The notes under the pieces were generated by a model. That model saw only the letters and a program-made list of their open reading frames with translations, made no database searches and was not told the DNA's origin. DNA of 64,000 bases from a virus (taxonomy: Duplodnaviria; Caudoviricetes), in the IMG/VR virus record IMGVR_UViG_3300033757_000347; one strand, 5' to 3'. Each line of letters opens with the position of its first letter. Position 1 is the first letter of the stretch. Below, piece by piece: positions 6,677 through 6,831 of the stretch. The position numbers and the translations under genes are program-made.

Positions 6677-6831
6677 AAAAGTAATAGCGATTGGAAACAG
6701 TTACTTCGCTTTAGGAGCCGGTACACTGGAGGTTCGAGTCCTTCCCTGGAGACCAAACAACAGATCCTCTTCAGGTGGCGGAATTGGTAGACGCGCCGTA
6801 AACGTTACTGTCCAAAACATTCTTTACTTTT
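6677..6831 (+). ncRNA. Y-RNA-like scaffold RNA D (payload: circularly permuted tRNA-Leu(TAG), YrlA-like topology)
   Basis: AAAAGTAA/TTACTTTT, TAGCGA/AACATTCT, TTGGA..CAGT/ACTG-TCCAA, TACTTCG; tRNA 3' half with CCA (6708-6755) precedes 5' half (6769-6798). Confidence 0.8.

What the first reader, a model, noticed from the sequence alone, without database searches (positions are those of the whole stretch)
6677..6831. Circularly permuted tRNA-Leu(UAG) inside scaffold D
Seen: the 3' half comes first (GC-TTTAGGA-GCCGG, T arm GGAGG-TTCGAGT-CCTTC, CCTGGAG-A-CCA at 6708-6755), then a 13-nt linker, then the 5' half (CTTCAGG-TGGCGGAATTGGTAGACGCG-CCG at 6769-6798). Joining 6798 to 6708 rebuilds a perfect CCGGC/GCCGG anticodon stem with a TAG anticodon and a 7-bp acceptor. 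Known: YrlA has T-acceptor-D permuted topology, and permuted tRNA genes in some algae and archaea mature through a circular intermediate. Inference: either a snapshot of a Y RNA being born from tandem tRNA genes, or a latent tRNA that could be released by cleavage, ligation and RNase P trimming, with a candidate ligase and RNase P RNA encoded in this window.
Basis: partly seen in the sequence, partly recalled or inferred. Interest (0 to 1): 0.78.

Follow-up and report, generated by a model that had tools for sequence, protein, structure and literature searches.

The report
Inside-out tRNA-Leu mimic on Ro60 handle
A large uncultured phage encodes, between two ordinary leucine tRNA genes, a small RNA that is a complete tRNA written in swapped order and mounted on a conserved stem. 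That stem recurs in small RNA genes near the Ro60 gene in related phage contigs, so this is most likely a protein-bound tRNA look-alike and not a hidden working tRNA.

Summary
Joining 6769-6798 to 6708-6755 gives an ARAGORN tRNA-Leu(UAG) with a 7-bp acceptor stem and a 5-bp anticodon stem. The unjoined DNA gives no tRNA or Rfam hit.

The element is not isolated. It is one of seven genes in this phage's tRNA region that share a conserved "handle":
- a covarying outer stem;
- a UAGYRA loop;
- a bulged helix;
- a GWUACUUCG box.

A TROVE/vWA (Ro60) gene lies 2.3 kb downstream. Related phage contigs also carry the handle, and most of those tested carry Ro60.

Twelve homologous leucine-type cargos show strong covariation for the sealed acceptor hairpin, the T and D stems, the outer stem and a composite anticodon stem.

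Among 30 such cargos the anticodon loop keeps its tRNA form, but the triplet takes 11 values. Some acceptors are capped by a UUCG tetraloop, the encoded CCA is missing in the closest relatives, and one close relative has a 6-nt loop. The phage already has two normal tRNA-Leu(UAG) genes.

I therefore read it as a YrlA-like Y RNA with a complete permuted tRNA cargo, a new variant of a known kind. The latent-tRNA idea is not supported. Ro60 binding and function are inferred. The scan has noted similar Ro60-handle RNAs in other phage genomes.

The parts
6677..6684 (+). Handle outer stem S1, 5' strand (AAAAGTAA). It starts 1 nt after the end of tRNA-Leu(GAG).
   Evidence: Pairs perfectly with 6824-6831. 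All 8 pairs show changes on both sides across 12 relatives, with 88.5% of cells paired.
6685..6690 (+). Conserved handle loop motif UAGCGA (family consensus UAGYRA)
   Evidence: T, A and G are invariant in alignment A1. The same motif (GTAGYAA) lies upstream of GWTACTTCG in all seven elements of this genome.
6691..6704 (+). Handle inner helix S2/S3, 5' strand. 6691-6694 and 6697-6701 are paired, AA at 6695-6696 is bulged, and 6703-6704 are paired.
   Evidence: Pairs with 6804-6815. By my reading of the sequences, relatives have a T bulge at the same place and compensatory changes such as TTGG/CCAA to TTAG/CTGA and TCAA/TTGA. Column counts for this helix are weaker, 59.7% paired, partly because of alignment shifts.
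6700..6708 (+). Conserved box GUUACUUCG at the handle-cargo junction
   Evidence: Exact or one-mismatch copies occur at 2013, 2909, 6700, 7433, 11160 and 11566 in the window, plus one about 820 nt upstream of it. All are on the + strand in the tRNA region.
6708..6718 (+). Anticodon-like hairpin: GC (6708-6709), loop TTTAGGA (6710-6716, triplet TAG at 6712-6714), GC (6717-6718)
   Evidence: The loop is identical in L004 (two copies) and L125, but is 6 nt long in L140 and carries other triplets in more distant relatives.
6719..6721 (+). Anticodon-stem 3' strand bases CGG, which pair with CCG at 6796-6798 coming from the D-arm side
   Evidence: Helix 4: 94.4% of cells paired, and all 3 pairs show changes on both sides. 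The composite stems sum to 5 bp in relatives: CCG|GC, CG|TGC, CG|GCT, C|CTGT.
6722..6727 (+). Short variable loop TACACT
   Evidence: Several relatives instead have a 14-17 nt class II variable arm.
6728..6744 (+). T arm: GGAGG, TTCGAGT, CCTTC
   Evidence: This helix is 100% paired.
6745..6755 (+). Acceptor 3' strand CCTGGAG, discriminator A (6752), encoded CCA (6753-6755)
   Evidence: The CCA is not conserved: GCTA in L004a, and ACAA in L004b, L125 and L140.
6756..6768 (+). 13-nt linker that closes the acceptor hairpin. With ACCA it forms a 17-nt loop. If the RNA is opened, RNase P would be expected to cut at 6768/6769.
   Evidence: The linker has different sequences in otherwise near-identical relatives. 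Cleavage is inferred by analogy with M. smegmatis YrlA (PMC4201824).
6769..6775 (+). Acceptor 5' strand CTTCAGG
   Evidence: Forms 7 bp with 6745-6751. In one search, 7 of 7 pairs show changes on both sides.
6776..6798 (+). tRNA positions 8-29: TG, D arm (GCG, GAATTGGTAGA, CGC), G26, then CCG
   Evidence: The D arm is of tRNA-Leu type. The 20-nt stretch 6776-6795 is identical to the D arm of the neighbouring tRNA-Leu(CAG).
6799..6831 (+). Handle 3' strand: junction TAAAC, S3/S2 3' strand (6804-6815), conserved loop AACATTCT (6816-6823), S1 3' strand (6824-6831). It ends 4 nt before tRNA-Leu(CAG).
   Evidence: The 3' motif ATTCT/TTTCT is conserved across the family.
9132..10760 (+). Ro60-type protein gene (TROVE plus vWA), the presumed partner of the handle
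   Evidence: Pfam hits to TROVE, vWA_Ro60 and VWA_2, all weak. Near full-length match to Thermus phage phiLo Ro60 structures 9L5Y/9KOP, E 1e-9. Homologues lie beside handle motifs in 15 loci and in 6 of 10 further contigs.
6592..6675 (+). Upstream flanking tRNA-Leu(GAG)
6836..6919 (+). Downstream flanking tRNA-Leu(CAG). RNase P cleavage at its 5' end would set the 3' end of the element.
   Evidence: No promoter-like or terminator-like site lies inside 6677-6835.

Best explanation
The stretch 6677-6831 encodes a Y-RNA-type non-coding RNA, not a decoding tRNA. It has two modules. The first is a 'handle' made by pairing the 5' leader with the 3' trailer: outer stem S1, a conserved UAGYRA / AUUCU internal loop, a bulged helix S2, and the GUUACUUCG box. 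The second is a cargo that is a complete, circularly permuted tRNA-Leu mimic with an anticodon-like hairpin, short variable loop, T arm, 7-bp acceptor stem sealed by a 17-nt loop, and D arm. The anticodon stem is composite. Two pairs come from the leader hairpin and three from the strand that follows the D arm, so the handle leaves the tRNA body through the 5' strand of the anticodon stem as a three-way junction. The RNA has no promoter or terminator of its own and abuts tRNA genes on both sides, so it is probably cut out of the tRNA-operon transcript by the enzymes that mature its neighbours. Inferred steps: (1) the handle docks the phage Ro60 ring encoded 2.3 kb downstream; (2) the tRNA-shaped cargo presents a tRNA elbow, a sealed or RNase-P-opened acceptor end, and an anticodon loop to a tRNA-recognising factor. 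Because relatives keep the tRNA body and the loop form but change the triplet freely, I think the cargo most likely serves as bait, decoy or tether for anticodon-directed enzymes such as host anticodon nucleases or modification enzymes. The fold, the family and the link to Ro60 genes are shown. Ro60 binding, processing and biological role are inferred.
For: The rejoined sequence is a cloverleaf. Seven elements in this genome share the leader motif, all in the tRNA region and on one strand. The motif scan of IMG/VR and the parsing scripts found about 33 handle-borne permuted tRNA cargos in other phage contigs. For 12 leucine-type cargos, 85.9% of cells are paired against 65.2% in shuffles (0 of 500 shuffles reach the observed value). 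Partners slid by 1-3 columns give 40-52%. Acceptor 7/7, S1 8/8 and D-side anticodon 3/3 pairs show changes on both sides. Ro60 homologues of 30-97% identity lie in the flanks of 15 motif-bearing loci and in 6 of 10 further contigs; the four without are only 7-15% complete. The ORF at 9132-10760 matches the solved phage Ro60 over nearly its full length. Against a decoding role: 30 leucine-type cargos keep U33 (27/30), a purine at 37 (29/30) and A38 (29/30) but carry 11 different triplets; the identical stem CCTGA/TCAGG appears with loops CTGTAAA, CTGCAAA, CTGAGAA and CTGTGGA; and 7 cargos have UUCG-capped acceptors. Three non-permuted cargos in this window also share the stem ATTGT/ACAAT with three different loops. 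Precedent: YrlA RNAs are Ro60 partners that resemble permuted tRNAs, and M. smegmatis YrlA is cut by RNase P and receives CCA (PMC4201824; 10.1101/312249). Phage Ro60 binds phage-encoded Y-like RNAs (PMC12135203).
Against: There is no expression, binding or processing data. The Rfam YrlA model does not match the element even at E<=10. The YrlA/Y RNA motif GNCGAA(N)G is absent, so the Ro60 docking site is assumed, not recognised. Single-sequence folding is no better than shuffles (z = 0.24). The proposed structure (-28.0 kcal/mol) is less stable than the computed minimum (-35.7 kcal/mol), although that is common for tRNA folds. The counts for handle helix S2 are only moderate (59.7% paired). 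The invariance of the D and T loops among relatives is partly imposed by my search pattern. Four handle-bearing contigs showed no Ro60, but all are small fragments. A close relative (L005) lacks the element altogether, so it is dispensable.
Confidence: 0.72

Rival explanations
1. RNase-P-opened, two-piece tRNA mimic. This is a variant of the best explanation that concerns the processing state. RNase P (host, or the phage's own small RNase P-like RNA) cuts the acceptor loop at 6768/6769, and the 3' side is trimmed to the encoded ACCA. The result is a Ro60-bound RNA in two pieces, held together by the acceptor stem, the anticodon stem and the handle. Its free CCA end could bind CCA-adding enzyme or even be leucylated.
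For: The window element has a 7-bp acceptor stem, a U at -1, an A discriminator and an encoded CCA. NCCA sits at this exact position in about 9 of about 33 leucine-type cargos, against 1/64 expected by chance. M. smegmatis YrlA, which has a 7-bp stem, is cut by RNase P and receives CCA in vivo (PMC4201824). An RNase P-like RNA lies at 4676-4880 (37.7 bits, below the gathering score).
Against: The closest relatives have GCTA or ACAA in place of ACCA, and seven relatives seal the stem with a UUCG tetraloop. The CCA frequency in cargos (about 27%) is no higher than in this phage's ordinary tRNA genes (14 of 41), so it may simply be inherited from the parent tRNA gene. There is no experimental data.
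Confidence: 0.3
2. Latent, truly permuted tRNA gene. The handle is cut away at 6707/6708 and 6798/6799, the phage RNA ligase seals the nick in the anticodon stem to make a circle, and RNase P plus 3' trimming open the acceptor. The product is a working tRNA-Leu(UAG), as with the permuted tRNA genes of Cyanidioschyzon merolae.
For: The rejoined sequence is a good cloverleaf with ACCA. The two ends to be joined lie side by side on the template strand GCCGG, the geometry a nick-sealing ligase prefers (inference). A PF09414 RNA ligase gene is at 18843-20096. Wang et al. raise this possibility for YrlA (10.1101/312249).
Against: The phage already has tRNA-Leu(UAG) genes at 8-93 and 7326-7408. The cargo lacks the long variable arm of bacterial tRNA-Leu. 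Homologous cargos with a leucine-type body carry Pro, Ser, Tyr, Cys, His and Gln triplets, one has a 6-nt loop (L140), and some have UUCG-capped acceptors. The same handle carries non-tRNA and non-permuted cargos, so it is not a dedicated splicing signal. There is no bulge-helix-bulge motif at the junction (by inspection), and no splicing endonuclease is known in bacteria or phages (10.1101/312249).
Confidence: 0.06
3. The handle is real, but its partner is not Ro60. It may bind another protein of the tRNA island, or act only as a folding or processing aid for RNAs released from the tRNA operon. On this view Ro60 is a frequent neighbour and not the ligand.
For: The recognised Ro60-binding motifs (GGUCCGA, GNCGAA) are absent. 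Four handle-bearing contigs had no Ro60 hit. Scan notes on other genomes describe similar tRNA-mimic RNAs paired with other proteins (unchecked leads).
Against: Ro60 homologues diverged down to 30% identity still lie within a few kb of handle elements. All four close relatives that carry the permuted leucine cargo have Ro60: L004, L125, L130 and L140. The contigs without Ro60 are 7-15% complete fragments.
Confidence: 0.12
4. Non-functional debris: the 3' half of one decayed tRNA-Leu gene followed by the 5' half of another, left by rearrangements in a tandem tRNA array.
For: The element lies between two tRNA-Leu genes. Its D arm is identical to that of the downstream gene. A close relative lacks it (L005).
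Against: The two halves are mutually complementary in the acceptor and anticodon stems. The arrangement recurs in many phage contigs with compensatory changes. The tRNA-like parts are identical in three copies whose linker and handle sequences differ.
Confidence: 0.03

Closest known systems
YrlA (Y RNA-like A) of bacteria and mycobacteriophages, partner of Ro60/Rsr (Rfam RF02553; Chen et al. 2014, PMC4201824; Wang et al. 2018, 10.1101/312249)
   Same: It is encoded near a Ro60 gene and among tRNA genes. The 5' and 3' ends pair into a long bulged stem. The effector module is a tRNA mimic in the order T arm, closed acceptor-like stem, D arm, which is a circularly permuted tRNA.
   Different: The Rfam model does not match. 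The handle has other conserved sequences (UAGYRA, GUUACUUCG, AUUCU) in place of GNCGAA(N)G. The cargo keeps a full anticodon stem-loop through a three-way junction, whereas YrlA is described as lacking the anticodon loop. It has an encoded ACCA. The same handle also carries non-permuted tRNA-like cargos and cargos that are not tRNA-like.
Mycobacterium smegmatis YrlA (PMC4201824)
   Same: [quoted passage not shown] That is the one YrlA shown to be cut by RNase P and to receive CCA, so it is a direct precedent for opening the window element at 6768/6769.
   Different: Processing of the phage RNA is untested. The phage element already encodes CCA, and its relatives vary (CCA, CAA, CTA, UUCG cap).
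Circularly permuted tRNA genes of Cyanidioschyzon merolae and Thermofilum pendens (Soma 2007 and Chan 2011, as cited in 10.1101/312249)
   Same: The 3' half lies upstream of the 5' half on one strand. The acceptor is initially a closed loop. The ends meet in the anticodon region. Rejoining gives a canonical cloverleaf.
   Different: Those genes are the only source of their tRNAs and are matured at a bulge-helix-bulge motif by the splicing endonuclease. Here there is no such motif, the isoacceptor is redundant, and relatives show non-cognate triplets and sealed acceptors.
Deinococcus radiodurans Yrn1 and Thermus phage phiLo Yrl1/Yrl2 with phage Ro60 (PMC4201824; PMC12135203)
   Same: These are Ro60-bound RNAs with a terminal stem, a bulge and a variable effector module. 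The phiLo case is a phage-encoded Ro60 with phage-encoded partner RNAs next to the gene. The window's Ro60 ORF matches the phiLo protein structure.
   Different: The phiLo Yrls were identified by a CGAA motif and are not described as carrying complete tRNA mimics. The Ro60 proteins are only about 24% identical.

Membership tests
YrlA / Rfam RF02553 | Match to the family covariance model at or above the gathering score (69 bits) | tested here: not met
   No YrlA hit in 6300-7000 even at E<=10 with sensitive filters. The weak YrlA hits elsewhere in the window span adjacent ordinary tRNAs.
YrlA / Rfam RF02553 | tRNA-like module in the order T arm, closed acceptor-like stem, D arm | tested here: met
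   Covariation in all three helices.
YrlA / Rfam RF02553 | 5' and 3' ends pair into a stem that carries the Ro60 site with the GNCGAA(N)G motif near the 5' end | tested here: not met
   The terminal stem is present and covaries (S1). The motif is absent: the 5' strand reads UAGCGAU...GUUACUUCG.
YrlA / Rfam RF02553 | Encoded close to a Ro60/Rsr gene | tested here: met
   A TROVE/vWA ORF lies at 9132-10760, 2.3 kb downstream. The same linkage is seen in relatives.
YrlA / Rfam RF02553 | Bound by Ro60 in vivo | not testable with these tools
   Needs immunoprecipitation or a gel-shift assay.
Circularly permuted tRNA gene (C. merolae type) | 3' half precedes 5' half, and rejoining gives a canonical cloverleaf | tested here: met
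   ARAGORN calls tRNA-Leu(tag) on the rejoined sequence. The minimum-energy fold is a cloverleaf.
Circularly permuted tRNA gene (C. merolae type) | Bulge-helix-bulge motif at the leader/trailer junction for the splicing endonuclease | tested here: not met
   By inspection, the unpaired TTC (6705-6707) and TAAAC (6799-6803) face each other at a three-way junction. There are no two 3-nt bulges separated by a 4-bp helix.
Circularly permuted tRNA gene (C. merolae type) | Matured to a functional tRNA that decodes its codon | tested here: inconclusive
   There is no RNA data. The indirect evidence is against it: redundant isoacceptor, 11 triplets on one body type, a 6-nt loop, and capped acceptors in relatives.
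Bacterial-type tRNA-Leu (class II) | Long variable arm of more than 10 nt | tested here: not met
   The variable region is TACACT, 6 nt. All standard Leu genes in the window have the long arm.

The most novel reading that the evidence does not exclude
These handle-borne permuted tRNAs form a phage-encoded set of anticodon-display decoys. On this reading, each is a Ro60-tethered tRNA body whose anticodon triplet changes rapidly to match the tRNA species attacked by the host's anticodon nucleases. The decoy absorbs the cut. It stays assembled because the handle clamps both strands, and the phage's nick-sealing RNA ligase reseals it. In members with a 7-bp acceptor and encoded CCA, such as this one, RNase P opens the acceptor to expose a real CCA end.
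Probability: 0.15. Interest if true: 0.85.

Novelty: new variant of a known kind. Interest (0 to 1): 0.6.

Why it matters
Y RNAs that mimic tRNA are known, but their effectors and purpose are not. This phage family has four unusual features:
- one conserved protein handle carries interchangeable cargos;
- some cargos are complete tRNAs in permuted order;
- these retain the anticodon arm, which published YrlA RNAs lack;
- the triplet varies freely on a constant body.

That pattern points to the anticodon loop as the part that matters, which gives a concrete experimental route to what Ro60-Y RNA particles do during infection. It also gives natural examples bearing on the proposal that Y RNAs arose from tandem or permuted tRNAs. 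For annotation, the element shows that tRNA halves lying between phage tRNA genes need not be pseudogenes.

Tried and rejected
- **Rfam.** Scans at the gathering threshold and at E<=10 on 6300-7000 and 1-12200 found no family for the element.
- **BLAST.** Searching 6500-7000 against GenBank phages returned only generic tRNA-Leu similarity.
- **Exact search.** A 28-mer from the T arm, acceptor and CCA has no other copy in IMG/VR.
- **Single-sequence folding.** The element folds no better than shuffles (z = 0.24), so thermodynamics alone gives no support.
- **Handle motif in 185,579 prokaryote genomes.** The scan returned essentially single, chance-level matches. The one double match (L264) is an unrelated repeat with no tRNA or Ro60.
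- **Leader motif as a general phage promoter.** Rejected. It occurs only seven times, always in the tRNA region, and its flanks pair with the trailer with covariation.
- **UUCG hairpin within GUUACUUCG.** Rejected. The following bases are not complementary in most copies.
- **Encoded CCA as a sign of function.** Weak. Ordinary tRNA genes of this phage encode CCA about as often.
- **Origin of the cargo.** It is only marginally closer to the phage's own tRNA-Leu(UAG) at 7326 (58 of 75 matches) than to the other Leu genes (49-56), so its parent gene cannot be named.

Full report
**Observation**

The window opens with a dense tRNA array. ARAGORN finds 41 tRNA genes, all on the + strand. The 160 nt between tRNA-Leu(GAG) (6592-6675) and tRNA-Leu(CAG) (6836-6919) gives no ARAGORN call and no Rfam match, even at E<=10.
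- 6708-6755 holds GC, TTTAGGA, GCCGG, a 6-nt variable loop, a T arm, CCTGGAG, A and CCA.
- 6756-6768 is a 13-nt linker.
- 6769-6798 holds CTTCAGG, TG, a leucine-type D arm, G and CCG.

Joining 6798 to 6708 gives a 78-nt sequence that ARAGORN calls tRNA-Leu(tag) and that RNAfold folds into a cloverleaf.

**Context in this genome**

The window belongs to a 174-kb IMG/VR virus record estimated at 67% complete. An ORF at 9132-10760 has weak Pfam hits to TROVE, Ro60-vWA and VWA_2. It also matches the solved Ro60 of Thermus phage phiLo over nearly its whole length, at E 1e-9.

The leader of the element ends in GTTACTTCG. The same box, preceded by GTAGYAA-like bases, occurs at 2013, 2909, 6700, 7433, 11160 and 11566 in the window and once about 820 nt upstream of it. 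All copies are on the + strand and inside the tRNA region. Downstream of each lies a pyrimidine-rich motif (ATTCT or TTTCT).

The seven elements carry different cargos:
- Three carry tRNA-like bodies in normal order. They share the anticodon stem ATTGT/ACAAT but have three different loops.
- Two are short and not tRNA-like.
- Two are permuted tRNA-like bodies, one of which is the element under study.

The scan's earlier notes on this genome describe the same family. I treated those notes as leads and re-derived the points used here.

**Relatives**

The neighbouring ORF (6945-7319) retrieved two close relatives.
- L004 has the element at the same position. There ACCA is replaced by GCTA, and the acceptor U.G pair becomes C-G.
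- L004 also has a second copy 2 kb away. Its tRNA-like parts are identical, but it has a wholly different linker, ACAA in place of ACCA, and compensatory changes in the handle.
- L005 has the two Leu genes only 9 nt apart and no element.

A pattern scan of IMG/VR for the leader motif found many contigs. Those with several copies are clearly related phage tRNA islands. Re-joining candidate halves and running ARAGORN gave about 33 permuted tRNA cargos of two kinds:
- In the first kind, which includes this element, the break lies inside the 5' strand of the anticodon stem.
- In the second kind, the break lies in the variable region, so the whole anticodon arm follows the D arm.

**Fold**

I aligned twelve leucine-type cargos (A1) and counted pairs for a structure that I specified.
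- 85.9% of cells form standard pairs, against 65.2% in shuffles. None of 500 shuffles reaches the observed value on any measure.
- Partners slid by 1-3 columns give only 40-52% pairing.
- The acceptor hairpin has changes on both sides in 7 of 7 pairs and is 98.8% paired.
- Outer stem S1 has such changes in 8 of 8 pairs.
- The three anticodon-stem pairs supplied by the D-arm side have them in 3 of 3 pairs.
- The T and D stems are 100% paired.

Across relatives the anticodon stem is always a 5-bp composite: CCG|GC, CG|TGC, CG|GCT, C|CTGT or C|TCGG. The handle therefore leaves the tRNA body at a three-way junction in the anticodon stem.

The inner handle helix is less cleanly supported by column counts (59.7% paired). 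Read sequence by sequence, it keeps a one- or two-base bulge at the same place and changes in a compensatory way. Thermodynamics alone is uninformative: z = 0.24, and the proposed structure has -28.0 against a minimum of -35.7 kcal/mol.

**Link to Ro60**

A tblastn search with the window's Ro60 against the fetched flanks found homologues of 30-97% identity beside handle motifs in 15 loci. Whole-record searches found Ro60 in 6 of 10 further handle-bearing contigs, and the four without it are only 7-15% complete. All four close relatives that carry the permuted leucine cargo have Ro60: L004, L125, L130 and L140. The motif scan made no use of Ro60, so this association is independent evidence. It is not proof of binding.

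**Is it a tRNA in waiting?**

A second pattern scan of viral contigs and metagenomes and the parsing scripts gave 30 handle-borne cargos with a leucine-type body.
- **Loop form.** Their anticodon loops keep the tRNA form: U33 in 27, a purine at 37 in 29, and A38 in 29.
- **Triplet.** It takes 11 values: TAG 8, TGG 7, TGA 4, GTA 4, and single cases of others. One identical stem, CCTGA/TCAGG, appears with four different loops.
- **Loop length.** A close relative (L140) has a 6-nt loop.
- **Acceptor end.** It is NCCA in about nine cargos, CAA or CTA in eight, and a UUCG tetraloop that leaves no end at all in seven.
- **CCA frequency.** CCA is no more frequent in cargos than in this phage's ordinary tRNA genes, where 14 of 41 encode it.
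- **Redundancy.** The phage already has two standard tRNA-Leu(UAG) genes.

A leucine-type body charged by LeuRS and carrying Pro, Ser, Tyr, Cys or His triplets would mistranslate, because LeuRS does not read the anticodon (my own knowledge). The comparative pattern therefore speaks against decoding. A caveat applies: my search pattern fixed parts of the D and T loops, so their invariance is partly built in. The variation of the triplet is not.

**Mechanism proposed**

*Shown:* a modular RNA gene with a covarying handle and a complete permuted tRNA fold, embedded in a tRNA operon without signals of its own, and genomically linked to Ro60.

*Inferred:* release by the processing of the flanking tRNAs; docking of Ro60 on the handle; and presentation of a tRNA-shaped bait.

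Opening of the acceptor loop by RNase P at 6768/6769 is plausible for this member. It has a 7-bp stem, U at -1 and ACCA, and M. smegmatis YrlA is a precedent (PMC4201824). It cannot be general, given the capped relatives.

The free variation of the triplet on a constant body suggests that the loop is the specificity element. I favour a role as bait or decoy for anticodon-directed enzymes, with low confidence.

**Comparison with known systems**

The element works like YrlA: a permuted tRNA mimic on a Ro60 stem, near rsr. It fails two of YrlA's defining tests, the Rfam model and the GNCGAA motif. Unlike published YrlA (10.1101/312249), it keeps an anticodon hairpin.

It shares gene order with the permuted tRNA genes of C. 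merolae. It lacks their bulge-helix-bulge motif and their necessity for decoding.

I found no description of this handle in Rfam 15 or in the papers searched. The scan has flagged similar Ro60-handle RNAs in other phage genomes.

**Origin**

L131 carries the leader motif, a 3' tRNA half, and then a nearly complete tRNA-Leu(UAG). That tRNA's own acceptor has decayed, while its 5' strand pairs 7/7 with the upstream half, and no 3' handle follows. This fits an origin by tandem tRNA duplication, as proposed for YrlA. It is a single case.

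Noticed in passing
window 4676-4880: Rfam E-value scan gives a full-model-length match to archaeal RNase P RNA (37.7 bits, E 6e-8), below the gathering score of 84. It lies between tRNA-Thr and tRNA-Gly. An earlier scan note reads it as a miniature phage RNase P RNA.
   Followed up: no
window 2021-2076, 11165-11231, 11574-11646: Three handle-borne tRNA-like cargos in normal (non-permuted) order share the anticodon stem ATTGT/ACAAT but have three different loops: CTCTTAA, TCGCAAC and TTTGGGG. 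This is the same pattern seen in the permuted cargos of relatives, a constant stem with a variable loop.
   Followed up: partly
about 820 nt upstream of the window start (G000 reverse-complement positions 38690-38830): A seventh handle element with the other kind of permuted cargo: T arm, a 5-bp acceptor-like stem capped by GAAA, D arm, then a whole anticodon arm with the loop CTGTAAA (Tyr-like GUA).
   Followed up: partly
L131 (reverse strand, about 660-850): The leader motif and a 3' tRNA half are followed by a near-complete tRNA-Leu(UAG) whose own acceptor stem has decayed, with no 3' handle. This may be an intermediate in the origin of permuted cargos from tandem tRNA genes.
   Followed up: partly
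L005 3881-3891 compared with window 6676-6836: A close relative (neighbouring ORF 88% identical) has the two Leu tRNA genes 9 nt apart and lacks the element. L004 has it twice. The handle elements are gained, lost and duplicated within tRNA arrays.
   Followed up: partly
window 2149-2739, 5017-5622, 7688-8338: ORFs resembling homing endonucleases (GIY-YIG with NUMOD3; TnsA-like endonuclease with NUMOD3) are interspersed among the tRNA genes.
   Followed up: no
window 21251-21324: ARAGORN calls a tRNA with anticodon CUA (labelled Pyl). Rfam scores it 64.9 bits as tRNA. It is an amber-suppressor-type tRNA gene.
   Followed up: no
window 12357-20096: Downstream of the tRNA island lie genes for NUDIX, an AAA ATPase, aspartate decarboxylase, adenylosuccinate synthetase and a PF09414 RNA ligase (18843-20096). 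The ligase ORF overlaps tRNA-Met at 18888-18961.
   Followed up: no
window 6945-7319: A 124-aa ORF between tRNA-Leu(CAG) and tRNA-Leu(UAG) has no Pfam match. It is conserved at 88-89% identity in L004 and L005.
   Followed up: no
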